Source of the DNA: Prorocentrum cordatum
Taxonomy: Eukaryota
DNA: 57,425 nucleotides
Assembly (NCBI GenBank): GCA_963575745.1
Contig: CAUYUJ010000027.1
Coordinates: 62,001 to 119,425 of the forward strand
Direction: 5' to 3'
Shown in pieces: positions 11,828 through 52,090 of this stretch. The notes below the pieces were generated by a model. It did not search any database. It saw only the letters and a list, made by a program, of their open reading frames with translations, and was not told the DNA's origin. The position numbers and the translations under genes are program-made. Numbering within the stretch: the stretch's first letter is position 1; each line of letters opens with the position of its first letter.

Positions 11828-12510
11828 ATCTTCGGTGGAGCTCCCGATTGGGCCACCAATCGTTGAACGGGTGGGCCGAAATGGGTGGCGGGGACGCTTG
11901 CGAACACCACCATTGAAGCCTTCGGTGGAGCTCCCAATGAGGCCACGACGCGTGTGAGGGGTGAGCCGAAATGGGTGGCGGGGACGCATGCGAACACCGC
12001 CACTGGGGCCTTCGGTGGAGCTCCCCATGGGGCCACGAAGCGTGTGAGGGGCTGTGCCGACATGCGTGGCGGGGACGCATGCGAACACCACCACTGGGGC
12101 CGTCGGTTGTGCTCCCTATGGGGCCACGAAGCGTGTGAGGGGTTGTGCCCACATGGGTGGTGGGGACGCATGCGAACGCCGCCACTTGGGTCTTCGGTTG
12201 AGCTCCCTATGGGCCACGAAGCGTTGAAGGGGTGGGCCGAGATGGGTGGCGGGGACGCATGCGCGCACCGCCACTGGGGCCTTCGGTGGAGCGCCCCGTG
12301 GAGCCACAGTGTGAGGGGTGTGCCGAAATGTGTGGCGGGGACGGATGCGAACTTTGCCACTGGGGCCTTCGGTGGAGCTCACCATGGAGCCACGAGACGT
12401 GTGAGAGGTGTGCCGAAATGGGTGCGGGGACGCATGTGAGCACCGCCGCTGGAGCCTTCTGTGGAGCGCCCTATGGGGCCACGAAGCGTGTGAGGGGTGT
12501 GCCGAAATGG
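11828..12510. repeat. Tandem minisatellite, unit of about 88-90 bp, about 8 copies
   Basis: CTTCGGTGGAGCTCCC...GGCCACGAAGCGTGTGAGGGG...GGCGGGGACGCATGCGAAC recurs at about 11830, 11920, 12010, 12100, 12192, 12281, 12367 and 12456. Confidence 0.93.
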
Positions 12511-20900: not shown

Positions 20901-20941
20901 GATCGTTGAAGAGCCGATTCCTGTCTGGACAACTGACCTTT
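17930..20941 (-). mobile_element. LINE-like element A remnant: ORF1 coiled coil, RNase H, AP-like (EEP) endonuclease; no RT visible
   Basis: RNase H motifs CDGSG, SETLALLWA, FYLDN and HVHAH..FNE (about 20190-19700). Endonuclease-like VVGTAETR, GSHGCSLW, MDANAT and ADHYLV in broken frames (about 19420-18590). Left boundary approximate. Confidence 0.72.
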
Positions 20942-21071
20942 TGTAACTGATCAGTAATTTTCTCTATCCGTTGCGTTCAGGTTTAGCGTTTAGTGTTGTA
21001 CGCATGTTTGCACCCGTGGACGGTACTTTGGCTCAAGGGAAAAGTGTCCAGTGTGCTCTGCTGCTGCCACA
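20942..21071 (+). repeat. 5' LTR (130 bp)
   Basis: TGTAACTGATCAG...CTGCCACA. Identical to 30532-30661 except at position 5 (A vs G). Confidence 0.97.
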
Positions 21072-21073
21072 GT

Positions 21074-21093
21074 TGGTAGCGGAGCCGGTTCGA
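21074..21093 (+). promoter_or_regulatory. Primer-binding site, probably for initiator tRNA-Met
   Basis: TGGTAGCGGAGCCGGTTCGA begins 2 nt after the LTR. Its reverse complement TCGAACCGGCTCCGCTACCA resembles the T-arm, acceptor stem and CCA end of eukaryotic tRNA-iMet (compare TGGTATCAGAGC/TGGTAGCAGAG PBSs). Confidence 0.85.
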
Positions 21094-21204
21094 CCGGCGC
21101 GGCCATGGGCAGCGCGGCCAGTCCCTGAGGGGGCGCGGCACGCGCGGCTCGAGAGCCGCCGGTCGGCGCCGGCTCGCGCGAGCTAGGCGGCGTGGATCCA
21201 CGGC

Positions 21205-24200
21205 ATGCCCGATGACGGCGACGACAGGGGCGGCACGTTCATGGCGACACTGCCCAGCGCCGAAGGCGCAGGGGGACCAGCGTCCCCTCCGACTGCGCAG
21301 ACGGCCGTGTCGGTCACACCGGAGCAGCTGAGGGAGCTCGTGGCGGGAATGGTGCGAGACACCATGGGCGCCGCGGCGGGGGCCGCGGCGAGCGAGGACC
21401 CTTGGCAGCGCGGGGCAGCAGCGTCGTCAAGACGCGGAGCGGCCGAGTCGGCCGCAGCAGCAGCAGCAGCAGCGGCAGAGCAGCCCCGCAGTACCGACAG
21501 CGACAACGATTGGAAGAAGAACGGCTGGAAGGACTACGGCCAGAACGACGACGATTGGAAGAAGAACGGCTGGCACGAGTACGGCCAGGACAAGGATGAC
21601 ACCTGGGACGGCTGCCGCCAGAAGAGCGACTGGTCCAACACCTGGTGGGGCCCCTCGCCGAAAGGCGACTTCAGCGACCCTCCAGGGTGGCCTGGGTGGA
21701 CGCATTACCGAATCTGGAAGAAAGCCATCAGACGTTGGAATGACAATACCGACGTTCAGCTATGGAGGAGATCAGAAAAGTTTTTTCGTCTGTTTGATTG
21801 GAATATGCAGATGAAGTTCGAGGATCTTCCAGATACAGTGTTGAGCAGTGCTGGATGGCTCGATGCAGTTCTAGGTCGTATGGACCTCATGATTGGGGAA
21901 CGCGAAGGTGATGAGTTGAGACGGTCAGGCAGAAAAGCACTATACGAAGGTCTGCGTGAGCCCAAAGAGACCTTGACACAGTACGTGAGTAGAAGAGAGT
22001 CTCAATTTCTAGAAGCTGAAGGCAATGATATGTGGCTCTCGTCAAAACTGAAGGGCCTGATGCTCGAGGAAGGTGCCCAGCTGACTCAGCAATCAATGCA
22101 AAACCTCAGGACCCTCACGAAGGGTCGCCTCGACTACGACAGTGTCAGTTGGGCTCTGAGACAAATGGATGCCGCTGGGAGTGAGCGTCTCATGTCCGGC
22201 AGGCCCAATGCGGCACTGTTCGGCGCCGAGGACGAAGATCCCGGCGACAGTGAGCAGTTTCTCTCCTCTCACTCCTACCCCTCAGGTCGGTTCGAAGGTG
22301 GTGAGGACCTCGACGAGGACGAGGAGGAAGAGTACGAGGTCGACGAGCAGGACATCGAAGCTTTGATGGCCGATCTGGAGGATCTGGACCTGAATGAAGA
22401 TCAGGTCGATGAGGCTGTTGCCAGCTTCTTCGAGGCCCGATCGAACAAGAGGACCTGGAAGCAAAACAAAGACATGAAGCTGGCCGCTCGAAGAGATCGA
22501 GAATACTTCGGAGCAAAGGCCAAAGGAGCAGGAGCTTCTCCACCACCTCCTGGGCTTCCCGGCGGCCATCGGGGAGGAGGGGGTCGTGGCGGACGAGGAC
22601 GAGGACGAGGTGGAGGCGGCAAAGGGCGCGGATTCAAGCCCCAGCTCTCCATCGAGGCCTTGATGAAGATTACTCGCTGCCGCCTGTGCGACGAGAAGGG
22701 GCACTGGGGCAACGAGTGTCCGAACCCAGACAAGAAGAAGGAAGGCCCACAGCGCCGGCCCCGCAACGACCGGCGGCAGGGGCTGAGCGCCTACACGTTC
22801 ACCGGCTGCACGGTGACCGAGGAGCTGACCGCGGAGATGCTAGACGAGCTCACCGACGCGCGGAAGGAGCTCGACGGCGGCGACTTCCTGGTGGCCGGTC
22901 CCACACAGGGCCTGGTGGATCCAGGCGCAGCCGGGGATCTCGTGGGCCGGGAGGTGCTCAATCGAGAGTCCAAGGCTCTGGGGCGCTTTGGGCTCCGGTA
23001 CGAGACGATCCCGAAGGAGTATCAGCGGCCTCGAGCAGCTCATGGGGTAGGAGGTTCTGCGACTGTACTGTGCAGTATTCTCTTTCCTCTGTGCCTTGGT
23101 GGTGTGCTAGGGGTGGTCGAGACCACCGTGCTCGAGGATGACGTGCCACACATCCTGAGCGTGAATTTACTAGATTTCCTTGGATGCACCATAGATCTCC
23201 CGCGTAACGTCATGAGGTCGGAGACGCTCGGGATAGACTTGCCCCTGACCAGACTTGGGTCAGGCCACCGCATGGCCGAGATAGTAAAGAAACTGGCCGG
23301 CCCGACACACCCTTTGCCGGAGTCGGCACGCTTGAAATATCCTTTTCAGAACGATCAGTCGTTCCTGCTGAAGGACGGTTCGCCTCCCGAGATGCTGCGC
23401 TCCGGAGAGTTGCGGGACTATATCATCATTATCATCATACTGAGCACGATCATCTTCAGCATCAGGGTCATGTCCAGGCTCTTCCCCAGGATCCAGGTGA
23501 ACCTAGGTAGCATGATCAAGGGCGTCTGGGAGATCCCCATGGTGTCTGTCAGGCTCTTCGGGTCTCGAGCTCAGTTGGCGTCCCTAAGACAGGTCGGGAC
23601 CTTAGGATCAGAGAATGAAGCTAAGGTGAAAGCGAGGACCTGCGGACCAACCCCAGCACCAGACGAGGGCACTCTAGCTATAGATCGGTCGACTTTCTCC
23701 GTAGCCATCGGCTCGAGCGAGCGTCGACATACTTTGTCTCGACCTCGTGCCTTCTTTGAGTACGACCGACAACGCCACCACGAGAGAGGTCATGCGACCG
23801 AACCTGCTCCTCAGGATCATGGTGATTCGTCTCCTGGCGGCTGCCGCGGGAAAGGGCAAGAAGCCCGGCGCCCAGGAGGCCACGGAGGAGTTCCTGAGGC
23901 AGCAGGCTGCTATCCGTGCACTGGTGGAGGCCAACCCCGAGGCGTTTCAAGATCAGCCAGGCGCTGGAGGGGCACTCCCAGTCCCGATGGACACCGGCGG
24001 CGACCCGTGGGTCGATCAGGGTCTCCAGGGAGATCACGGCTTCCACGAGGACAGCATCGGGGGCATCACGGCGCCGGGCGGGAGTCAGCACCAGGCGGAG
24101 GAGACAGCCCCCGGCGGAGGTGCAGGTCAACCGGCCGAAGCAGCGGGACAGCCCCATCTTCCGCAGGGAGCACCTCCGCAGATGGGCAACGCATTCTTGG

Positions 24201-27045
24201 AGCCCACGGCGAAGCGCGTGACCCGTCCAGCAGGACCGCCCCCGTCGGGTCAGACACCGGCGACTCCAGGGACGTCCTCGGCCTCGGGTGGACCTCGCGC
24301 GGTCTGGGCCCAGAGTCAGTCTCCGTGGGGACCAGTGCCCGGAAAGCCACCTCCCAAGCCCGACCCTCGGGCGATTCCGCCGGCGGAGTGGACAGCGAGA
24401 CTCTATGCCAGAGGTCAGCAGTCTTCCTTTCCTTCGACGGCCGCAGCAGCGACAGGGATCCCAGTCAAGCCACCTCCGATCTCACTGTCGGGGGTCCCCG
24501 TCAAGCCGATGCCGGCATGCACGCACCCGATCGAGCACGTGAAGCACTACGGGAACAAGTACGGGTCCGGCTCGAAGTGCAAGCCGTGCGGCAAGTCCCT
24601 GGCGTGGGTCAAGAAGGGCGACCTCCCAGGCGACCCGAGTCAGATGGAGCGGGCTCCGTCAGCAGCCGAAGCTGCGAGGTCGGCAGCAGCGGCAGCGCAG
24701 AGAGCTGTGGACCTGTTGCAGCAGGATGGGGGCTTCACCCAGGGCGTGGCGGCCCTCAACACGGTCAACAGCCTCTCGGCCATGCTGCAGAGCCTGCAGT
24801 GGCAGCTCCACAACATCCCGGAGGGGGTGAGGGCCTTGGGAAACGTTCAGCAGGTGCTGGACCGCATGATAGCCTTTGCGATGGACAGCGCCAATCACCC
24901 GACGGAGATGCAGGAAGGAATGCACCGCATCTTTCAGGAGCTTTCGCGACTACGCGCGCTCCTGGAGACGTTCGAGAACTTCGGCGAGACGCTGGGCGGG
25001 ATCCAGACGGCGATCGAGGGACTCACGACGACCTTCGCCCAGTTCCAGCAAGGCATGGACCAGATGGTAGGCATGATAGTCCAGATCGGGACGGCGGTCT
25101 CGGCGCTGGCCACGCACGCCAACCAGCAGATGATCAACCCAGAGCTGCTGCAGATCCAGCAGGCCCAGATGATGGCCATGATGCAGGCCCAGGCGCAGCA
25201 GCAGCAGGTCGACAACTCCAGCGACGCGGCTCAGCAGGAGGGCGAGCCCGCGGGGCCGACGACGACCGCCTCCGAGGAGTTCTACATCGGCGACGCGACC
25301 ACCACCACAACGACGCCAGCCAGTCCAGAGGGCTGGCAGATTGTATGAGCGAGGAGATAGCCCGCTCACGCTTACGTTCTCTGAAGCTGACTCACAGCTT
25401 CTCCAGGTGCCCATGTCCAGCACCTGAGGAGAGAAAACAGTCCTCTCTCTCTCCCACTCCCCACTCGTCCCTCTGCCTCCCCTCCGTTAACGAACCCATG
25501 CCCCGTGCTCCCCTCGAGCATAGTTTTGAGGAGTATCAAGTCTATTGGCTAGACGGAGATTCGTGCAACGATGACCACGAGGCTTCATGGCCAAGGAAGG
25601 TCAGGGAGGCCGTCGAGCGGGGGGCGGTTGCGGATGCCGGAGGAAGCAAGACGGACCGGGCGGCAGCCGGCGGTGGGGAATTCCTGGTCCGCAAGGACAG
25701 GGCCCGCACGGCGTTTCTGGAAGTTTTCTCTCCGCCCCGAATTGCTCCCGAGGTGGAGAAGCGGGGGGCTCCACTCGGATCGTGCCCCAGCAGGGATCTG
25801 GTCTTGGGCTGGGATGCGTCGCGCCCTAGTCACGTGCGTGATCTTTGGAATCAAATCGAGAAGGAGGATCCTGAAGTCATATGGCTTAGTCCGGAGTGTC
25901 GTGTCTTTTCAGCGATTAATCACCTGAACAAAGCCAAGCGAGACCCCAGCGTGTGGCACCAGGAAGTGATGAACGGGCTCCGCGATCTAATCCTCTGTAT
26001 GGAGATCGCTCGTCACCAGATCGATCGGGGTCGATGCTTCGCTTTCGAGCATCCGCTCTACGCGACTTCCTGGAACGCTGAGGTGGTTCGGGTGATCCTC
26101 TCAATGGATGGAGTTAGGAAGCTAAGGATCGACATGTGCCAGTTCGGGCTTCAGGTGGATGAGCGAGGGGTCAACAAGAAACCTACCGGGGTCATCACTA
26201 ACCATCCTCTCCTGGCCAGGGCTCTGGACGGAAAGTTGTGCACCGGGGGACACAAGCACGCCCTGCTTGAAGGTCAGGCCAGGACGTCCCGAGCGGCCAG
26301 GTATCCCCAACGATTTGTGAAGGCGGTGGCCAACGCGGTGGCCGAGTACTGGAGCGGTACCAAGGGGAGCGAGCGTCCTCAGTGGGGAGACTTCTGCGAG
26401 GAGTCATTCCCGGCGGCAGCTTCGGCGGAAGAAGAGCCCGGGAGGGCCGAGGAGGAAGCCGGCGAAGTCTCCGAGGACAGTGGCGATGAGCAGGAGACCC
26501 GGGGGCCGACCGGGACCCAAGGCCTCAAGGAGGCCGAGATCGATCCTTCCGAAGAAGAAAAGAGGCTGATCTATAAGCTGCACGTGAATATGGGGCACCC
26601 CGAGGTCCGACGTTTCTGCCGCGTCTTGCGAGCCGGCGGGGTCAAGAGGCACCTCGTCAGGTGGGCGCTTAAGGGGTTTCGGTGTGCTGAGTTTCAGGAG
26701 CGGCAGAAGTCCAGCAGCCACCGCAGGGTCGCTCTCCCTCGGACCTTCCGATTCAATCACATTATTGCCGTAGATCTGTTCTATATCGAGTTTCAGGGTC
26801 AGACACACCCAGTGCTCAACATAGTGGACCACGTATCCAATCTGCAAGTGTGCACCCGCATACCCCACCCTCGCGCCGCTGACGTCTGGAGGGCGTTTAG
26901 CGAGTGTTGGTTGCGGCCATTTGGTGCCCCCCATTTTCTGATGTCCGACGGGGGGTCCGAGTTCGGAGAACGGTTCGCGCGGGGTCTGGAACAATGGGGG
27001 GTCCGGCACCACGTGTGTGACGCGGACTCGCCCTGGCAGACCGGC
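21205..27045 (+). CDS. gag-pol: Gag-protease-linker-DNMT-integrase (N-terminal part) polyprotein
   Basis: 1976-codon ORF. Motifs: CX2CX4HX4C knuckle CRLCDEKGHWGNEC (22678-22719), protease GLVDPGA (D at 22918) with ILSVNLL, integrase HVNMGHP, IAVDLF and MSDGGSEF. The frame is lost by a 1-nt deletion near 27045; the shifted frame continues VERHGGW. Confidence 0.9.
23792..25348 (+). CDS. Nested out-of-frame ORF (518 aa from the first ATG) inside gag-pol; zinc-binding motif plus long helical region, function unknown
   Basis: Protein-like composition in this frame, whereas the overlapping pol frame reads as R/G/P-rich shadow sequence. Hydrophobic N-terminus, C-x-H-x17-C-x2-C motif (24518-24589), Q/M/L-rich amphipathic region at about 24660-25210. 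Confidence 0.8.
   Translation: MRPNLLLRIMVIRLLAAAAGKGKKPGAQEATEEFLRQQAAIRALVEANPEAFQDQPGAGGALPVPMDTGGDPWVDQGLQGDHGFHEDSIGGITAPGGSQHQAEETAPGGGAGQPAEAAGQPHLPQGAPPQMGNAFLEPTAKRVTRPAGPPPSGQTPATPGTSSASGGPRAVWAQSQSPWGPVPGKPPPKPDPRAIPPAEWTARLYARGQQSSFPSTAAAATGIPVKPPPISLSGVPVKPMPACTHPIEHVKHYGNKYGSGSKCKPCGKSLAWVKKGDLPGDPSQMERAPSAAEAARSAAAAAQRAVDLLQQDGGFTQGVAALNTVNSLSAMLQSLQWQLHNIPEGVRALGNVQQVLDRMIAFAMDSANHPTEMQEGMHRIFQELSRLRALLETFENFGETLGGIQTAIEGLTTTFAQFQQGMDQMVGMIVQIGTAVSALATHANQQMINPELLQIQQAQMMAMMQAQAQQQQVDNSSDAAQQEGEPAGPTTTASEEFYIGDATTTTTTPASPEGWQIV
25714..26345 (+). other. C5 DNA cytosine methyltransferase-like domain embedded in pol
   Basis: Motif series FLEVFSPPR (I, lacking the canonical GxG), WLSPECRVFS (IV, Cys at 25897), FAFEHP (VI), DMCQFGL...KKPT (VIII) and AARYP (X). 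This matches the layout of retrotransposon-borne DNMTs known from dinoflagellates. Confidence 0.8.
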
Positions 27046-30000
27046 GAGTTGAACGCCATGGGGGGTGGGTTAAGGATCGTGTCAAGGCGGAGGTGGAAGC
27101 GGGGGCCTCCGTGGTCAGGTGTATTGAAGACTTAGATGAGCTTCTCTACGAGCTCGTGTCTCACAAAACCAGATACTGGCACCGGGGAGGGTTCTCCCCC
27201 ATGCAGCTCGTGTTCGGGGAAAACCCTCGACTTCCTCATGAGCTCCTTTCTGACGACATCGCCATTCCGGGGTGGCAGGACATGCTGTGCTCGCCTTCCG
27301 AGCACGACGGCCCCGGGACCGAGTTTGCTAGGGCCCAGAGGGTGCGAGAGGCAGCGCGAAGATTGGCGATGGAGGCCACCTCTAGAGACAAGGTGAACCG
27401 CGCCTCGCACGCCAGGGCCCCTGCCCCCAAGACCTTCAGCCCCGGACAGTGGGTCTATGTGTGGAGACATCTTACCCGCACCTCATCCCGAGCCGACGCT
27501 CTGGGTCGGAGAAGGGACGGGTGGTGCGGGCCCGGGGTGGTGGTTCTGTGCGAGGGCAGTACGGTGTGGGTGGCTGTCCGTGCGCGTCTTTGGAAGTGCT
27601 CCGTGGAACAGGTGAGATTGGCGAGCGTCGATGAGGAGCTGGGGGTTCAGCTCTCTCAGAGCCCCCAGTGGCAAGAGCTGTTGCGGCAATCTCAAACTCG
27701 GCGAGGCGCTGCGGTTGACGTTCAACGGGAGGGTCCACCACCCGACGAGGCGTGGGATGACTCGGTCCGGATCCAGGAAGATTCCGCGCCCAGGGTGCCC
27801 GGGGTGGGACCAACTCCCGCTGAAGAGCAGGACGACCCCGGGCCAGGGCCATCCGTGATGGGCCCGAGTCCCGGCCCCAGGAACCCCAGGCCAGGTTGGA
27901 GATCCCGAGCTCCCTCGGAGGCCGGCTCCGTCTCAGTTCAGCCCGGGAGCGAGCGGACACGTTTGCCATCCGTGCCAGAGGAGGCTCAAAGCACACCTCC
28001 CCAGGCATCACCCGAGATGTCCAGGGAAGTGTCCGGTGAGCCCGAGGAACACCCGAGCGGGGTGAGGGAAGCTTCTCCGCTCGTTTTTCCCGCTCCTCCT
28101 CCTCCCTCTCCCGCTCCCTCCTCCGCTCGCACTCGTCTTTCCCAACCGAACGACGTCCCTCATTGCATCCGGTCACGCACTGCCGAGGCGAGGGCGTCAA
28201 GCTCACCCCCCGAGGTCAAGCGTGCTCGCACCGAGGAGCCCCCGACTCCCGCCTCGAGGCCAGCGGTCATCTTGGGCCACGAGCCCCAGGTGCCCGTCGC
28301 CGACCGGGTGCGGGAGATCGAGGGCAGGCGGGAGCGGAGCCGCTCGCCGTCAGCCCCGACGGGCTGGGAGGAAGAGGACGGAGGAAGGACCGAGGATTTC
28401 TTCCTCTTCCCCGGTGGTGGTGTCGGTGGTGGTCTCCTGGCCCGGCCAGTTCAGGAGTACGAGTCAGGCCTCGGAGACAAGGGGGAGGGCACGTTTGTGG
28501 CCAGCAGGGGGGGAGAGGTCACTTTGAAGAATTTGAACCCCTCCGAACGTGCCAAGTTCGACATTTCTGATAAGAAGGAGTGGGACGCGATGATGGCGAC
28601 CGGAGCCGTCGAAATCATCTCGCCCAAGAAGGCGGATGCGGTGCGCAAGGCACAGCCCGAGCGCATCATCTCGAGTCGGATGGTTCGTCGATGGAAACCG
28701 GTGGAGGGGACATTCGCTAACCCGGACGCCAAATCACGCTGGTGCGTGCATGGACATAGAGACCCGGATTCAGGTTCTCTCCAGGTCTACTCCCCCACCC
28801 CTCAGACCAGCAGCATCATGATGTTTATACAGATCATCATGAATCTCTCCCTCCTGGCCGACATCGCAGACGTTAAAAACGCGTTCTGCCAGTCAGATCC
28901 AATATCACGTCCTCAGGGCGATATATATGTCGAGCCCTGCGACGGTATAGACATACCCAGGGGCAGCCTCATACTCTTGAAGGTGAACGTCTATGGATTA
29001 GACGACGCTCCTGTTGCCTGGAGAAAAACAGTCGTTAACTTTCTTGAGAAACATGGGTTTACTCGATGTTTATTGGGGCCTTGTTGGTGGATCCGGTACG
29101 GCCCAAAGGGGGAGGTGTTGAACATGATGTTGCTAGAGGTCGATGACTTCTTTATCGGGAGTTCGTCGGAGGAGTCACGTTCGTGGCTTAGAGGTTTGCT
29201 CGAATCCAGATTCAAGTTTGGAAAATATCGTGACCTGCAGGCAGGACCTGTTGAGTATGCAGGGCGCCGGATTTCTCTGAATGCTCGGCGTGCTGTCATC
29301 GATCAAGAAAAATATATCTAGGAGGAAATTCGACCACTTCCTCTTGCCCGAGGCCGCCTTACAAAGAAGGACTCGCCCCTGGACTCTTCCGAGTTCAAGG
29401 CTTTACGTTCACTTGTATACAAATTCAATTGGGTGGGTAGGGAGAGCCGCCCTGAGGCGGCAGGGGTCGCCAGCATACTGGCGAGTCGCCTTAAGGCTCC
29501 GACTACCGGCGACGTTTCCCTGGCAAATAAGCTCGTCAAGCACTTGAGGACTACGGCCTCGAGGGGCATCGCTGTCTGGAAATTGGATCCTGAAAACATG
29601 TCATTTATGTCTTTCTCCGACGCCGGCGGTGTAGGTGCAGCCGAGAGCATGACAGATGACAAGGGCCTTCCAGAAGACCCTACCCAGGGAGCGTGGATGG
29701 TCCTGGCAGCGGACAAGAGCGTGCTGGCGAACCGATCGGTCAAGGCATCCATCTTAGGATGGAGAAGCTCCAAGTTGCGCAGAAAGGTTCCGTCGACCTT
29801 GGCCGGTGAAACCCAGGCTCTTTCCTCCGCAGTAGCAGAAGTAGAGTATCTACAAGTCATGTACCGAGACGTGATGTTTAGAGACGTGGACGTCCAGGAC
29901 TACCACCGGGGCTCTGGGCCATTTACGGCAGTGCTCTGGCGTGACTGTCGGTTGGGCGCCCGGGAAGAGCAGGTACATGTAGTAGATGCCAAATCTATTT

Positions 30001-30509
30001 ACGACACGATGCTCAAGGAGGGGAACGCAGGGGCCCGGGACCGAAGAACGGCAATCGACCTGGCCATTATCAGCGAGGCCCTTGAGAGGGCCCAGGGTCG
30101 GGTACGATGGGTCCCTCACGGGAGGATGCCGGTCGACGCGTTGACCAAGGACGACGTGTCGAAATGCAACGCCGCACTCTTCGACCTAATGGTCAGCGGT
30201 CGTCTGGTTCTAGTCGATGAGCCCGGGGAGTTGGAGCGTCGACGAGAACAGCCCGAGCTTAAAAGTAGGACCCAGGCAGCGTCCAGGAAGGAGTTGGACA
30301 TGATCACCTGGGAAGACCTCCGCAGTCAGACTCCAGGTCCTGGTGGTGGTGGTGACGGTGGTCCTCCTCCTCCTCCTCCCTCTCCCTCTCTATTCCAATC
30401 GTCTGCCTGTCTTCCAGTAGAATCACTTTTCCTTATTCTCCACAGGGGGGTCAGGCAGATCCTGACCAGACAGCTGCAGGCCACAGGGGCCGACAGCTGG
30501 GGGTGCTAA
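27046..30509 (+). pseudogene. pol: Integrase C-terminus, copia-type reverse transcriptase and RNase H; one in-frame stop
   Basis: Integrase: ERHGG (catalytic E), FSPGQWVYVWR...WCGPGVV. RT: KSRWCVHGHRD, ADVKNAFCQ, VYGLDDAP, EVDDFF. TAG at 29319-29321, after which the same frame continues. RNase H: FSDAG, STLAGETQAL, VDAKSIYD, WVPHGRMPVDALTK. Confidence 0.92.
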
Positions 30510-30531
30510 ACCTGCTAGAAAGTCTGACCAG

Positions 30532-30661
30532 TGTAGCTGATCAGTAATTTTCTCTATCCGTTGCGTTCAGGTTTAGCGTTTAGTGTTGTACGCATGTTTG
30601 CACCCGTGGACGGTACTTTGGCTCAAGGGAAAAGTGTCCAGTGTGCTCTGCTGCTGCCACA
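30532..30661 (+). repeat. 3' LTR (130 bp)
   Basis: TGTAGCTGATCAG...CTGCCACA, followed by the TSD CTTT. Confidence 0.97.
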
Positions 30662-31379
30662 CTTTGTGAGGTCGACATAGGTGGATGGCCGTCAATACCA
30701 CAGAGTACCATGAGCGCTCTTCGTGGGCCATCTCTCCAGATCTCTCTTTGAGCCTGATGGTGCCAGCAAGAATTCTCAACTGTTGCCTGCACTCTGTGAT
30801 GAAAGTACTGCGCTCTCTGGCCGACGCAGTTGGGTCCAACTCTCCTGGGAAATGCTGATGCAGTCGCGCCTCCGAAGCAAGATCGGGGATGCTGCCCAAA
30901 GGCCTCTGATCTTCGTCCCTGGAACCATCCTCCTCCCCGTCTGCGAACGTAACCGACGGAGACCTCGTACGCTGCTGCCGCTTCGCAGTCGTCTGTCTGT
31001 CGTCCGCGTCGGTCTGTGTGGCGGGACCCTGACCTGACGCTTTTCCCCGACGAGTTTTGTCCCTTCGTTGGAATGGGTGCGCGTTTGATTGTTCTTGACC
31101 CACTGCTGTCTCTCGAATGTATCCGCAATCTGAGCCGAACCGTACTCCTGTCCTCGCAGTGCCACGATTCCTGCAGTTTTGCCTCTCCAAGAAGTTTGAC
31201 GCAGCACAGGAAGCACAACACCACGACTTGGAGGACAAATAATGATGACGATTGAGCAGCCGTCTTGCTTGGATGACTGTGTACTCAGACAATCCAGCTA
31301 TAACACGAGCCTGCGCTCGTGCCTCCCTCTGCCGGCGATGCCAAGCGGGGTTCGCCTTCCTCCGCCGATGTCCAGACAT
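30662..31379 (-). pseudogene. LINE-like element A, 5' part of ORF1 (RanBP2-type zinc finger), interrupted by the LTR element
   Basis: MSGHRRRK... then WCCASCAASNFLERQNCRNRG, which fits W-x-C-x2-C-x3-N-x6-C-x2-C with the last Cys lost. Joins in frame to 20937 when the LTR element and one TSD copy are removed. Confidence 0.75.
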
Positions 31380-36809: not shown

Positions 36810-39800
36810 GGAGCTCGGGCAAAGGGCTCGGGCAAAGGGGACAAGCAGCAGATGGTCGACGCTTTGAGGGGCATAACCGAGTCGCTCTCCACCATTGGCA
36901 TCGCCGCTGGACCCACACAGCAGCTCAAGGCAGCTGCAGATGGTCTAGCCCCACCAGCTGAAGAGCCCGCACAGAATCGCGCTGGGCAGCTCCGCAACGC
37001 AGCTCCCAGGTTCGAAAGTGCCAGTTCAAAGTACGAGAACGCCTGCGAGGAAATGACGGCCACACGGAAGCAACTAGCCGAGCATCGCGCCTACCTGATG
37101 GAGTGTGCCAACGCTGTCACTGAAACGGAGAGGCCGGTCGAGGAAATCACGGGTGTCAAGGCAAAGTCCAAGGTGCAGGAGAAGGACGACAACCCCCATC
37201 AGAAGAACCTGACTTGAACCTTGACGACGAAGACAGCCTGGGCATCGCTGATGACCTGGAGGACGACGACCCCGACCAGGACGCCAAGGACGAGGTCGCA
37301 GAGGTCAAGAGGCGTCTCTTGAAGGTACACGACAGGTCTTCGGCTCAACCTCCAACAAGCTCGCGAGCAAGCCAAGCATAATCGTGAAGCCGTCAAGCAG
37401 GCTGCCAAGAAACGGAATGCAGAAGGAGGTGAGGCGAAGCATGTACTTGCTACTGAAGAACCAACGCCTCCAACACCTCAGCCTCGCGCGCCATCCACGC
37501 TTCGTTCAACGGAATCCAATAGCAGCAACGCTAAGCACGAGCTCTTGGCGAATGTGCGCGTGAAGGCCAAGAAGGAAGAGGAATGCCAAGAGCATGATGG
37601 CGAGGCGGTAGCTTCGCCAGGCAAACAAGAACAGGGACTACCGAGCTCTCATCGCCACGCCGGCCACAGAGGCGATGTTGAGCTCAGAATATTCGTCGGC
37701 AGCTGCACGGAGGTGGGTGCCAGGGCGAAGGAGTTTCTGGCCAGTGCCAGGGAGCGCAAGCCGATCGACGCCTTCGCCATCCAAGAGACCCATCTCATAA
37801 TTCTTGAGCTGATGGACGCCGAGCGCGACGTCCACAACATGGACTACATGTCTGCCTTCTTCCCAGCGCGGCAACCTACTGAGAGCCAGCAGGGTTTCAA
37901 TGGCGGGGCCTGTGCTGGCATACTATCATACTACTGGTGCGAGTGCTACCGCGAGAAAGCTGCCGAGGGTTCGACCTCAGCGACCACGGCTGGTCTCGTG
38001 GCCCTCCCCGCTGGCGGCCCTGGGCGCGACTGCTTCGACTGGGTCCTGGTGTGCTGGCACCTCCGCGGCAACAGCGTCACCGTTGTCGGCGTCTACCTGG
38101 CCCCTGCTGGCAGCCTCCAAGGAGTCAGTGCCAGAAAGCTTGCGACGTTGGCCTCATTCTTGGCCAGCTACCAATGTCCGTGGATCGTCATGGGCGACTG
38201 GAATGCGACTCCCCAGAGACAATGGGCTTCAGGAGGGCCACGAGCCATGGGGGACCCATCGCCACACTCCCAGACGGCTACGCATGTTTCACGCACAACA
38301 GCAAGAAGGGCACAACCTCTGCCACGCTCATCGACTATGCTGTGATCAGCCGCGATGCCCGGACATATTTTCTTGGCACAAGCGTGGTCGCGACGCCGTG
38401 GAGGACGCGGGCGGGGCAGATCTTGCGAGTCAGAGGTGAGGCCAAGCCGATCAAGATCAGACGGCTCCAACTACCAAAGCATTTTACGCATGCACCGGCA
38501 CCGTGCAAGCCGCCCAACCCTGGCAGCAAGAGGCACCAGCAGAAAGCAGCATGCGCGCCAGCGCCAGGTGGCGACCACCAAGGACATGACGAGCGCCAGC
38601 GACGTCAACATTGACGAGGAGATCAGCCGCTGCTGGGAACATCCTGGGCATTCCCGGCAACCAGTGCACAGAGCTGTTGGGCACCGCGCGAACTCCACCG
38701 AGCACGACCTCATGGAGGACCTCGAGAGCGAGAGCGGCCGCGTATCCGATGACGAGCCGCGCGAGGAGCCCTCGCCGAGGCGGGTCCCGAGGCGCCATCG
38801 AGCGCGCCTGGGACAGTGGGCGGGGCGCTGAGGAACGCTTTCTCAGGGGCCCTCCCTCCAGGTGCGCGCGCCGAGCAGATCGACGCCCGCGCAGTGGGCG
38901 ACCTCTGGGGGGTCTCGTCGATGATCGCGAAGCCGCGACCGGAACGCGAGCGCCCGCCAGAATACGTGCGGCGTGGTGCTGCTCGTGCCTCAGGCCCAGA
39001 GGCGGCCGCTGCTCTGGGGCAGGAATGCGGTCAGTTCACGGGTACTCTGGAAAAGTTCTATTGCGCGGCCTGCGACGTCCAGCCCCAGGATCGCCGGCAG
39101 TTTACTGGGCGCGGCGCGCCTTGCATAATTGGCACTAAATGCGTTAGACCACGGACGAGACGTACACGCAACAGCTGCACACCAACAGACATGTGGTGAA
39201 GGCTGGCGACTATCTTCAGCGCGTGCCACGCAAGTCGAAGACGTGGGCGCGGAGACCGACAGCAACGACAGCTCGCATCTGAAGCGCTGCAGTTCGTCTG
39301 CGAGGGCATGCCCGCAGCAGGAGCTCGATTGTCACCGGATGCAGCGCGTCGCCGTGACCTTTGGGGGTCTAGGCCTAAGACGCTGGACGCGCCCGACATC
39401 GGGACGATCGAGGGTATGTTGAACCAAGCCGAGCAGGAGGTCGCCAAGGTCAGCACTTTCGACATGAAGATGAGGTCACACTCGTTCGTGCGCTGGCTGT
39501 CGGACACCTCCAAGGCCACTGTCTGCGAGCTCTGCAGAATCACCGAACCACAGTCGCGGCGTTAGGACAAATTCTTACGCGTCAGAGGCAGGGCGTGCTG
39601 CCCCAATCATTGGCGCCAAGACGGAGGAATTTACAGCCTTCTGGACACGCCCGTCCATCACCCACAGCGACTTCCAGACCCTCATCCAGGACATCCGGGA
39701 GTGCGCTAGGACGGCGCCAACCGCGACCTGTAGGCTACTCCTTCATGTGCACGCCCGACAAGGGCAGTGGCGCATGCGAGGTTTCCAGCTCCGACCTACG

Positions 39801-51744: not shown

Positions 51745-52090
51745 GGCCCCGAACCCTGAGATCCGGCGTTGCCAACAAAATTGCAACACTGCAAAAAATC
51801 ACGACCAGAGCCCCAGACCCCATCTTTCTGCTTCATTTTTTGAGCCAGATCGATCTGCGAGGGTCCCAGGGCCTGAAGTTGAGGCAAAATGCCAGCGGTG
51901 AAAAAATCGTCCAAGATTTTTTCGTAACGTCGACCCCCAAAGTTCTCGACCCCTTCCCTAGGACGGGTTTCTCGTCCTGACTCGTTTTTCCGACGGCCCC
52001 GAGTCCCAGCGAGGACCCCCCCCCAGGGGCCGAAAATGGCGACCCCCCCCCCGTCGTGATTTTTCCATGACCCGAGGGGGTCTGGGAATG
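51745..52090. repeat. Member of an abundant dispersed repeat family (GACCCCATCTTTCTG...GATCGATC and CGTCGACCCC...CTCGACCC modules)
   Basis: Related modules in both orientations at about 3260-3360, 11540-11730, 15240-15690, 32640-32760, 44820-44950, 46240-46390, 49820-49940, 51400-51480 and 53200-53330. Confidence 0.7.

What the first reader, a model, noticed from the sequence alone, without database searches (positions are those of the whole stretch)
23698..23717. Internal spliced-leader-like sequence 75 nt upstream of the nested ORF
Seen: TCCGTAGCCATCGGCTCGAG versus DinoSL TCCGTAGCCATTTTGGCTCAAG. The first 11 nt are exact, followed by GGCTC and AG (18 of 22 positions with a 2-nt gap). It is in sense orientation just ahead of the first ATG (23792). 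Under a uniform base model a specified 11-mer is expected about 0.03 times on both strands of this window. Inference: it is either a relic of a captured trans-spliced mRNA or a functional leader mimic for a subgenomic transcript.
Basis: partly seen in the sequence, partly recalled or inferred. Interest (0 to 1): 0.8.

Follow-up and report, generated by a model that had tools for sequence, protein, structure and literature searches.

The report
Spliced-leader relic inside a copia retrotransposon
A worn copy of the dinoflagellate mRNA leader lies inside a young copia-type jumping gene, just ahead of a conserved hidden gene, and related elements carry similar leader pieces there and in their terminal repeats, which suggests these elements copy their own leader-tagged RNAs back into DNA.

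Summary
The sequence is as described: 23698-23717 matches the 22-nt DinoSL at 18 positions, the first 11 exactly, 75 nt before ATG 23792. Alone it is not significant: 44 of 300 shuffles reach its gapped score, and any exact SL 11-mer occurs in about 20% of simulated windows.

Context changes this. The site lies in a young Ty1/copia element (20942-30661). Its LTRs hold the other exact half of the leader, TTTGGCTCAAG, in sense. Among 57 related metagenome loci, 7 of 22 LTR-like repeats score 9 or more against the SL in sense and 0 of 22 in antisense. The 100 nt before the nested gene is SL-like in 19 relatives (0 of 20000 resamples, 0 of 500 permuted leaders reach it). SmTCL3 of Symbiodinium microadriaticum shows both kinds of block.

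The nested ORF is a conserved +1-frame gene of this lineage (23 of 57 loci), not a recent host capture.

Best reading (about 0.6): a relict DinoSL copied back from the element's own trans-spliced subgenomic RNA, probably still marking its splice acceptor. No RNA data were available, and host identity is unsettled. This is a new variant of the known relict-SL phenomenon.

The parts
20938..20941 (+). Target-site duplication CTTT, 5' copy (3' copy at 30662-30665)
   Evidence: Contigs of run X1 join 20937 to 30662 and 20935 to 30661, an empty-site form (table 5).
20942..21071 (+). 5' LTR, 130 nt, TG...CA
   Evidence: Direct repeat with 30532-30661, 98% identical.
21020..21037 (+). SL-like block in the 5' LTR: ACGGTAC then TTTGGCTCAAG (21027-21037 equals SL positions 12-22 exactly)
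   Evidence: It ends 34 nt before the LTR end.
21074..21085 (+). Primer-binding-site-like TGGTAGCGGAGC
   Evidence: Read. The same 12-mer follows the LTR-like repeat in L001, L003, L016, L019, L023, L047, L049 and L053. The tRNA assignment is inferred, not tested.
21205..27135 (+). ORF1 polyprotein (1976 aa): gag with zinc knuckle, protease-like region, open spacer, DNMT-fold domain, integrase core
   Evidence: Pfam rve at aa 1851-1943. Colinear BLASTP matches to polyproteins of 2200-3500 aa.
23698..23717 (+). The finding: SL-like 20-mer TCCGTAGCCATCGGCTCGAG. Its TAG (23702-23704) is the stop that bounds the nested frame upstream.
   Evidence: nested frame open from 23705. Read in the polyprotein frame as F-S-V-A-I-G-S-S.
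23792..25348 (+). Nested ORF, 518 aa, +1 frame relative to ORF1
   Evidence: GC3 is 0.79 against 0.52 in the polyprotein frame over the same bases. 22 homologues at E up to 1e-3.
25702..26400 (+). DNMT-fold domain of the polyprotein (SPPC..FS and FEHP motifs)
   Evidence: AlphaFold2 model pLDDT 89. The Foldseek PDB hits listed are DNMT-family chains, best E 2.6e-4. No Pfam hit.
27093..29321 (+). ORF2: integrase C-terminal part and reverse transcriptase, -1 frame relative to ORF1
   Evidence: Pfam RVT_2, E 1.1e-12..
30532..30661 (+). 3' LTR, with the same SL-like block (TTTGGCTCAAG at 30617-30627)

Best explanation
The 20-mer is a decayed copy of the dinoflagellate spliced leader (a relict DinoSL). 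It sits inside a young Ty1/copia LTR retrotransposon, at the 5' boundary of an element-encoded overlapping gene.

Proposed mechanism (inferred, not shown): the nested +1 ORF lies 2.6 kb into the genomic RNA and out of frame, so it needs its own mRNA. In a dinoflagellate that mRNA would be made by SL trans-splicing at an AG here. Candidates are the CCGTAG preceded by CTTTCTCC, or the terminal GAG.

Such an SL-capped subgenomic RNA, if reverse-transcribed together with the genomic RNA, can put the leader back into the element by template switching. The relic then supplies an acceptor and homology for the next round, so the block is renewed rather than simply decaying.

The SL block in the LTRs would be the same footprint for the full-length RNA, sitting at the U3/R border.

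Shown here: the sequence match, the element anatomy, the reality and conservation of the nested gene, and SL-likeness at both places in relatives. Inferred: trans-splicing at this site, copy-back by template switching, and present-day function.
For: (1) The match is 18 of 22 with the first 11 exact, in sense, 75 nt before the first ATG of the nested ORF.

(2) The only exact SL 11-mers in the 57-kb window are this one and TTTGGCTCAAG in both LTRs of the same element, all in sense. P is about 2.6e-4 for two independent hits.

(3) LTR-like repeats of related loci: the mean SL score is 7.7 in sense against 5.9 in antisense. 7 of 22 against 0 of 22 score 9 or more (Wilcoxon p = 5.7e-4). 2.5% of 1767 control windows score 9 or more, and 0 of 3000 resamples reach the observed mean.

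(4) The 100 nt upstream of the nested-gene start in 19 relatives: mean score 7.84 against 5.97 in 1339 controls. 6 of 19 score 9 or more against 2.6% of controls, and 0 of 20000 resamples reach this. 0 of 500 permuted leaders reach the real leader's mean for either set.

(5) GGCTCA is present in 9 of 9 group-A relatives, 49-74 nt before the start. It occurs in two different codon phases of the polyprotein: phase 0 in the window, L003 and L022, and phase 2 in seven others. This argues for nucleotide-level rather than peptide-level conservation.

(6) Different relatives keep different leader parts: L003 has TCCGT..TTTGGCTCA, L005 has GTAGTCATGCTGGCTCAA, and L055 has TCCGTTGCCA...

(7) SmTCL3 of Symbiodinium microadriaticum has CCTTTGGCTCAAG in its LTR. 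It also has TCCGGTAGCCCAGGCGGCTCA about 3.07 kb in, between two coding modules. This is identical in all 6 rows of the published alignment (PMC5776459 supplementary file 2, parts 4 and 7, read by eye).

(8) The nested gene is real and ancestral. Substitutions concentrate at its third codon positions in 6 of 6 pairs. A GRF zinc finger is found in 3 of 8 relatives tested. The window's nested frame carries the coding GC3 signature.

(9) By the published criterion for relict DinoSL, an exact 9-mer or longer within 500 bp upstream of an ORF (PMC5585692, methods passage), this site qualifies.
Against: Alone, the match is within chance for a window of this size (44 of 300 shuffles; P = 0.20 for any exact 11-mer).

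No RNA evidence exists, so neither trans-splicing at this site nor expression of the nested ORF is shown.

The relatives are not independent. Many come from one metagenome and include close pairs, so the resampling figures overstate significance. The shared GGCTCA may be a single ancestral event.

I chose the start codons of the relatives' nested genes from N-terminal conservation. Six loci were left out: L010, L040 and L041 have fewer than 110 nt upstream, and L001, L007 and L038 have no start identified.

MAFFT did not place the window's GGCTCGAG in the GGCTCA column. Its homology to that column rests on position, order and shared codon phase with L003 and L022.

Internal hits scoring 11 or more outside these two places are about as common on the antisense strand. 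Some are produced by coding motifs, for example AILDTG and DMCQFGL.

In seven relatives the block reads M-x-A-Q in the polyprotein frame, so some peptide constraint is possible.

In run X1 both covering contigs read A at 23717, which removes the terminal AG.

The closest protein fragments (100% identity) are filed under a prasinophyte label, so a DinoSL-using host is not proven.
Confidence: 0.6

Rival explanations
1. Chance or coding-driven resemblance at the internal site. The 20-mer is ordinary polyprotein-spacer sequence that happens to resemble the leader. The family motif GGCTCA reflects a conserved peptide or another unrelated constraint. The LTR blocks may still be real.
For: 44 of 300 shuffles reach the gapped score. 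P = 0.20 for any exact 11-mer per window. Other SL-like hits arise from coding motifs and from a satellite repeat. M-x-A-Q is encoded over the block in seven relatives.
Against: The hit falls next to the family-conserved GGCTC motif, upstream of the nested gene, and in sense. The SL-likeness of that region in 19 relatives is not reached by 20000 resamples or by 500 permuted leaders. GGCTCA is kept in two codon phases. SmTCL3 has TCCGGTAGCC five bases before GGCTCA. The same element carries the other half of the leader in its LTRs.
Confidence: 0.15
2. Relic of a captured, trans-spliced cellular mRNA. The segment from the SL to the end of the nested ORF was transduced from a host gene.
For: A relict leader directly ahead of an ORF is the standard mark of a retroposed dinoflagellate mRNA (PMC7245778, PMC5585692; passages). 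Four Prorocentrum cordatum proteins homologous to the nested protein are annotated as separate proteins. Their genomic context could not be seen.
Against: A +1-frame nested gene sits at the same place in 23 of 57 related loci whose polyproteins are only about 24-43% identical to this one. The arrangement therefore predates this element by far, and an exact 11-mer would not survive that long unaided. No A-rich tract follows the stop codon. The polyprotein frame is stop-free across all 518 codons, P = 2e-4 by codon shuffling, which is unlikely for a fresh insert. No relative of the nested protein was found outside this element family and the P. cordatum records.
Confidence: 0.05
3. A functional cis-element kept for its own sake, whatever its origin. 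Examples are a core-promoter-like TTTT/TTTG box in the LTR, or an internal signal for translation or RNA processing that mimics the leader, with no ongoing copy-back from spliced RNAs.
For: Song et al. propose that the leader's TTT(T/G) acts as a basal promoter for retrogenes (PMC5585692, introduction passage). The LTR blocks mostly keep the CATTTTGGCT core. GGCTCA is conserved at nucleotide level.
Against: The window's internal block has lost the T-run (CCATCGGCTC), and so has SmTCL3's. Different relatives keep different parts of the leader, including the 5' end, which has no proposed promoter role. That pattern fits repeated copying and decay better than one fixed motif.
Confidence: 0.15

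Closest known systems
Relict DinoSL of dinoflagellate retrogenes ('recycled' processed cDNAs: Slamovits and Keeling 2008, recalled; Song et al. 2017, PMC5585692; Stephens et al. 2020, PMC7245778)
   Same: A DNA-encoded, partly decayed copy of the 22-nt leader lies in sense orientation a short distance upstream of an ORF. It meets the published exact-9-mer-within-500-bp criterion.
   Different: It lies inside the polyprotein ORF of an LTR retrotransposon, ahead of an overlapping element gene, not ahead of a retroposed host gene. A second block sits in the LTRs. The same two places are SL-like in distant relatives, which points to recurrent renewal or constraint rather than one retroposition event.
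SmTCL Ty1/copia-like elements of Symbiodinium microadriaticum (Chen et al., PMC5776459)
   Same: Copia-type elements of about 10 kb with short LTRs and a TGGT..-type primer site. SmTCL3 has TTTGGCTCAAG in its LTR and a TCCGGTAGCC..GGCTCA block inside.
   Different: The main text contains neither 'spliced leader', 'trans-splic' nor 'DinoSL' (term search, 0 occurrences each). In SmTCL3 the internal block lies between an upstream coiled-coil and D-rich module and gag-like sequence, not between protease and a nested ORF. I compared it by eye only.
Retroviral subgenomic spliced mRNAs (established retrovirology, recalled)
   Same: An internal gene of an LTR element would be expressed from a processed subgenomic RNA. 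Co-packaged RNAs allow template switching that writes processing scars into the genome.
   Different: Here the processing would be trans-splicing of a host leader, not cis-splicing from a 5' donor. The internal gene overlaps pol-frame spacer in the +1 frame. Nothing is shown at RNA level.
Additional ORFs of LTR retrotransposons (titles and abstracts of PMC7264820 and PMC5408684, seen only in the search listing)
   Same: An extra, lineage-specific gene in a gag-pol element.
   Different: This one is fully overlapped by the open polyprotein frame and sits between protease and a DNMT-fold domain. I did not read those papers beyond the listing.

Membership tests
Relict DinoSL | Exact match of at least 9 nt to the 22-nt leader within 500 bp upstream of an ORF, in sense (criterion of PMC5585692) | tested here: met
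   11 nt exact, 18 of 22 overall, ending 75 nt before ATG 23792.
Relict DinoSL | Host is a dinoflagellate that trans-splices DinoSL | tested here: inconclusive
   No genome is held. Named relatives of the polyprotein are from Symbiodinium. Named relatives of the nested protein are 4 from Prorocentrum cordatum and 14 from a EukProt set labelled Pyramimonas sp. CCMP1952, out of 18 looked up.
Relict DinoSL | Mature mRNA carries the authentic leader followed by the relic | not testable with these tools
   No RNA run holds the stretch. The laid runs are DNA contigs.
Relict DinoSL | More similar to the leader than chance allows | tested here: inconclusive
   Alone, no: 44 of 300 shuffles. With the LTR block and the relatives, yes, subject to non-independence of the relatives.
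Ty1/copia LTR retrotransposon | Two LTRs, target-site duplication, primer-binding site | tested here: met
   130-nt LTRs 98% alike, CTTT duplication, TGGTAGCGGAGC two bases after the LTR. Empty-site joints in run X1.
Ty1/copia LTR retrotransposon | Integrase upstream of an RVT_2-type reverse transcriptase | tested here: met
   rve in ORF1 and RVT_2 in ORF2, both above Pfam cut-offs.
Transduced (captured) host mRNA | Insert is absent from related elements and is bounded by a leader and a poly(A) remnant | tested here: not met
   The nested +1 gene is present in 23 of 57 related loci. No A-tract follows the stop codon.
Overlapping (dual-coding) gene | Both frames are open, and the nested frame is under purifying selection | tested here: met
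   The polyprotein frame has 0 stops against 8.0 expected, P = 2e-4. In 6 of 6 related pairs the nested-frame identity exceeds the polyprotein-frame identity, and differences peak at nested codon position 3.
C5 DNA methyltransferase (for the domain at 25702-26400) | DNMT catalytic fold with a PC (motif IV) and ENV-like (motif VI) signature | tested here: inconclusive
   The Foldseek hits listed are DNMT-family chains, E down to 2.6e-4, TM 0.35-0.55. SPPC..FS and FEHP are conserved. No Pfam DNA_methylase hit. A glycine-rich SAM loop is not evident. The motif names are recalled.

The most novel reading that the evidence does not exclude
Dinoflagellate Ty1/copia elements have built the host's trans-spliced leader into their replication cycle. 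Both the genomic RNA and a subgenomic RNA for a conserved overlapping gene are SL-capped. The SL-homologous blocks in the LTR and at the internal cistron boundary serve as acceptor plus strand-transfer homology, and they are rewritten from the authentic leader at each round of reverse transcription. This would be retrovirus-like subgenomic expression achieved by trans-splicing. It would also directly link these elements to the mRNA 'recycling' that shaped dinoflagellate genomes.
Probability: 0.3. Interest if true: 0.8.

Novelty: new variant of a known kind. Interest (0 to 1): 0.62.

Why it matters
Relict leaders are the accepted mark of mRNA retroposition in dinoflagellates. Ty1/copia elements are the suspected source of the reverse transcriptase, with direct evidence said to be lacking (PMC5585692, PMC6050394, PMC3942190; passages).

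Leader-derived blocks inside the elements themselves, at the LTR and ahead of an internal gene, would show two things. Their own RNAs are trans-spliced, and spliced RNAs are templates for their reverse transcriptase. That makes the link directly testable with SL-primed cDNA.

The work also exposes two further features of this lineage: a conserved overlapping gene and a cryptic DNMT-fold domain. One paper states that Symbiodinium Copia elements lack any DNMT domain (PMC5890265).

My full-text searches and the passages read turned up no description of SL relics in LTRs or inside retrotransposons. Subscription journals are not covered by those searches.

Tried and rejected
- No whole genome is held for the window.
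- No RNA holder was listed for 22900-25900. The four runs laid are DNA contigs and show nothing about expression.
- The nested protein found nothing in the word-indexed search among proteins of 284-907 aa. It has no Pfam family.
- Scans with its alignment found no relative in JGI metagenome contigs, IMG/VR or GTDB genomes.
- Three alignments were too loose for the search for related loci and were replaced by tighter ones.
- The word-indexed search with ORF2 gave one unnamed hit, probably because low-complexity words swamped it.
- Profile-profile comparison of the window's nested family with the group-A nested proteins aligned the expected C-x-HP..GN..C motif, but at probability 2.8% and E 0.016. 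Homology is therefore positional, not proven.
- The AlphaFold2 model of the nested protein has pLDDT 56, so I ran no fold search on it.
- Rfam gave no family at gathering score in the whole window.
- No poly(A) remnant follows the nested stop codon.
- Other SL-like hits in the window were set aside. 11936 and 12396 on the minus strand are part of a tandem repeat array I estimated by eye at about 88 nt. 51866-51905 on the minus strand matches 16 of 20 but is followed only by a short ORF.
- Pfam on 35 other long ORFs gave no host gene that could fix the taxon.
- Earlier-findings look-ups gave nothing on this genome or sequence. One unrelated note on giant-virus DinoSL cassettes turned up.
- SmTCL1, 2 and 4 were only sampled by short-motif searches. 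Their files are printed in 10-base blocks, which break most motifs.
Full report
**Observation.** Window 23698-23717 reads TCCGTAGCCATCGGCTCGAG on the + strand. A local alignment to the 22-nt DinoSL gives 18 matches, 2 mismatches and one 2-nt gap, with leader positions 1-11 exact. The leader, DCCGTAGCCATTTTGGCTCAAG, is printed in PMC7245778. No ATG lies between the motif and ATG 23792, 75 nt downstream. The TAG inside the motif (23702-23704) is the stop that bounds the nested reading frame upstream, since that frame is open from 23705.

**Is it more than chance?** Alone, it is not.
- The gapped score of 13 is reached by 44 of 300 dinucleotide-preserving shuffles of the window (mean 11.5, maximum 14).
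- Any exact 11-mer of the leader occurs 0.28 times per simulated window, with P(at least one) = 0.20 in 600 Markov simulations.

The window holds exactly three exact leader 11-mers, at 21027, 23698 and 30617. All lie on the + strand inside one element. The first and third are the two LTR copies of one sequence. Two independent hits on the sense strand of 9.6 kb have a Poisson probability of about 2.6e-4. That test is post hoc.

**The surroundings.** The site lies in a Ty1/copia LTR retrotransposon.
- The LTRs are 130 nt (20942-21071 and 30532-30661), 98% identical and TG..CA-ended. They are flanked by a CTTT duplication and followed after 2 nt by TGGTAGCGGAGC.
- ORF1 (21205-27135, 1976 aa) has a gag zinc knuckle, a protease-like region and an integrase core (Pfam rve). 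ORF2 (27093-29321) has RVT_2.
- Contigs of run X1 join the flanks across the element, 20937 to 30662 and 20935 to 30661. An empty form of the site therefore exists. The insertion is young.

**The nested ORF is a real gene.** It runs 23792-25348 (518 aa) in the +1 frame.
- Over these bases the nested frame has the coding signature (GC3 0.79, GC2 0.52). The polyprotein frame has GC3 0.52.
- The polyprotein frame nevertheless has no stop where codon shuffling expects 8.0 (P = 2e-4, 20000 shuffles). Both frames are therefore kept open.
- An exhaustive HMMER search found 22 homologues at E up to 1e-3. Of the 18 I looked up, 14 are short fragments in a EukProt set labelled Pyramimonas sp. CCMP1952, at 100% down to about 35% identity. 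The other 4 are Prorocentrum cordatum proteins.
- The predicted structure is low-confidence overall (pLDDT 56). It shows an N-terminal hydrophobic helix, a long disordered stretch and a C-terminal helical region.

**The family.** Polyprotein relatives of 2200-3500 aa share gag, protease, a long non-homologous spacer of about 430-840 aa, a conserved domain and integrase. The only species-named ones are from Symbiodinium natans and Symbiodinium sp. CCMP2456.

A scan of JGI metagenome contigs with the conserved domain plus integrase returned 57 loci.
- In 23 of them an ORF of at least 250 codons is nested in the +1 frame of a longer sense ORF. Four have one in the +2 frame.
- The nested proteins fall into two groups.
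- In 6 of 6 related pairs the nested-frame protein is more conserved than the polyprotein-frame translation of the same DNA, for example 0.85 against 0.65 and 0.91 against 0.72. Nucleotide differences peak at nested codon position 3.
- Three of 8 nested proteins tested carry a GRF zinc finger above Pfam's cut-off.
- Group A shares a C-x-HP..GN..C-x-x-C..W motif with the window's protein. Profile comparison aligns it but is not significant (probability 2.8%).

The overlapping gene is thus an old, element-encoded gene and not a recent host capture. No A-rich remnant follows its stop codon.

**Leader-like blocks in LTRs.** Each LTR of the window's element holds ACGGTAC-TTTGGCTCAAG, which includes leader positions 12-22 exactly, ending 34 nt before the LTR end.

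Of the 57 loci, 22 have direct repeats at least 3 kb apart. Several are followed by the same TGGTAGCGGAGC.
- Their best local score against the leader averages 7.7 in sense and 5.9 in antisense.
- 7 of 22 against 0 of 22 score 9 or more (Wilcoxon p = 5.7e-4).
- Length-matched control windows reach 9 in 2.5% of 1767 cases, and 0 of 3000 resamples reach the observed mean.
- Examples are CATTTTGGCTGAAG (L023), GCCATTTTGGC (L003), CCATTTTGGCT (L050), TCCTGTAGCCTTTCTAGGCACAA (L022) and CCTTTTAGGCTGAAG (L016).

**Leader-like blocks ahead of the nested gene.** I took the 100 nt from -110 to -11 before the conserved start of the nested gene in 19 relatives. Six were left out: L010, L040 and L041 for lack of upstream sequence, and L001, L007 and L038 for lack of an identifiable start.
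- The mean best score is 7.84 against 5.97 in 1339 control windows of the same loci.
- 6 of 19 score 9 or more against 2.6% of controls. 0 of 20000 resamples reach either figure.
- With 500 random permutations of the leader as query, none reaches the real leader's mean, for either the LTRs or these windows.
- In group A, GGCTCA (leader positions 15-20) is present in 9 of 9 relatives, 49-74 nt before the start. The 22 nt anchored on it match the leader at 9-15 positions.
- The motif sits in codon phase 0 of the polyprotein in the window, L003 and L022 (F-x4-G-S). It sits in phase 2 in the other seven (M-x-A-Q). Conservation is therefore at least partly at nucleotide level.
- Relatives keep different parts of the leader: L003 has TCCGT..TTTGGCTCA, L005 has GTAGTCATGCTGGCTCAA, and L055 has TCCGTTGCCAGACTGAGATCAA.

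Caveats apply. The loci are not independent. I chose the starts. MAFFT did not place the window's GGCTCGAG in the GGCTCA column. Elsewhere in the loci, hits scoring 11 or more are about as frequent on either strand, and some come from coding motifs.

**A named dinoflagellate example.** This comes from the published alignment of SmTCL3 copies of Symbiodinium microadriaticum (PMC5776459, supplementary file 2, parts 4 and 7, read by eye).
- The LTR holds CCTTTGGCTCAAG about 57 nt before its end.
- About 3.07 kb into the element lies TCCGGTAGCCCAGGCGGCTCA. It sits between a coiled-coil and D-rich module and gag-like sequence, and is identical in all six rows.
- The paper's main text contains none of the terms 'spliced leader', 'trans-splic' or 'DinoSL' (0 occurrences each).
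- These sequences are not stored loci, so I ran no statistics on them.

**Host.** No genome is held, and 35 other long ORFs gave no taxon-fixing Pfam family. The nearest protein fragments carry a prasinophyte label, while every other named relative is from a dinoflagellate. The leader-like blocks argue that the element replicates, or recently replicated, in a DinoSL-using cell. That reasoning is circular for the present question, so I leave host identity open.

**Mechanism (inferred).** A gene 2.6 kb inside the genomic RNA and out of frame needs its own mRNA. In dinoflagellates 5' ends are made by SL trans-splicing (PMC7245778, PMC11453091; passages).
- The block offers a pyrimidine-rich run followed by AG (CTTTCTCCGTAG) and a terminal GAG. 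In six of the nine group-A relatives the block ends in CAG.
- A subgenomic RNA capped with the leader, if co-packaged, lets reverse transcriptase switch templates and write the leader into the element at the acceptor. The relic then gives homology for the next switch.
- Likewise, minus-strand strong-stop DNA copied from an SL-capped genomic RNA ends in the leader's complement. An SL block at the U3/R border of the 3' LTR would pair with it and would be rewritten each cycle.
- This would explain why elements only about 24-43% identical in their best-conserved proteins still carry leader pieces, why the 3' part of the leader is kept most often, and why different lineages keep different parts.

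None of this is shown at RNA level.

**Rivals.**
- Chance or coding constraint at the internal site: 0.15.
- A cis-element kept for another function, such as the TTT(T/G) promoter idea of PMC5585692: 0.15.
- A captured host mRNA: 0.05.

**Known and new.** Relict leaders ahead of retroposed genes are well known. Copia elements are known in dinoflagellates and are suspected as the reverse-transcriptase source. My searches and the passages read found no account of leader relics in LTRs or inside retrotransposons. Subscription journals are not covered. I file this as a new variant of a known kind.

Noticed in passing
window 25702-26400 (ORF1 aa about 1500-1732); same domain in L001-L028 and L045: A conserved polyprotein domain between the nested gene and integrase has no Pfam hit. 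Its AlphaFold2 model (pLDDT 89) matches C5 DNA methyltransferase catalytic domains (DNMT1, DNMT3A/B, Dnmt2; best E 2.6e-4, TM 0.35-0.55). SPPC..FS and FEHP motifs are conserved. PMC5890265 states that Symbiodinium Copia elements lack any DNMT domain.
   Followed up: partly
window 23792-25348; nested ORFs in 23 of 57 loci (e.g. L002 2069-3205, L004 2015-3217, L045 2584-3345): A conserved gene lies wholly inside the polyprotein ORF in the +1 frame, in two protein groups. Group A has a zinc-ribbon motif and often a GRF zinc finger. Group B has a WGKKH..GY..W motif. The polyprotein frame over it behaves as an open spacer.
   Followed up: partly
window about 27021-27135: Pol is split in this copy: ORF1 ends at 27135 and ORF2 continues in the -1 frame from 27093. 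Contigs of runs X1 and X2 carry one extra base behind 27042, and many relatives have a single ORF. This copy probably carries a one-base frameshift in integrase and may not be autonomous.
   Followed up: partly
window 20935-20941 / 30661-30665: Run X1 holds contigs that join the two flanks without the element, at depth about 3. The insertion is therefore polymorphic, or the flank is duplicated elsewhere (table 5).
   Followed up: no
window 23717: Both X1 contigs covering the site read A instead of G at the last base of the SL-like block, and are otherwise about 99% identical (4 differences in 336 nt) (tables 3 and 8).
   Followed up: no
window 11880-12480, minus strand: A tandem repeat array, with a period I estimated by eye at about 88 nt, whose units contain CCCATTTCGGC(A/T)CA. 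This accounts for two weak SL-like hits there.
   Followed up: no
window 51836-51905, minus strand: CCGCTGGCATTTTGCCTCAA (16 of 20 to the leader), then TGGCTCAA about 30 nt further on, 3 nt before an ATG. This might be decayed relict leaders ahead of a host exon, but only a short ORF follows.
   Followed up: no
window 37323-38342: An ORF with a weak Exo_endo_phos match (E 3.3e-4, below the Pfam cut-off) suggests a LINE-type element next to the copia element.
   Followed up: no
L001, L002, L004, L006, L007 LTR-like repeats: A second shared LTR motif, (C)AGGGGCCC, lies about 8-45 nt downstream of the SL-like block in one clade of relatives.
   Followed up: no
L001 16199-16220, minus strand: TCTGTGCCATTCTGTGCTCAAG followed by GT, outside the element. 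It scores 13 against the leader and has a donor-like GT, so it could be a decayed SL RNA gene or a relic.
   Followed up: no
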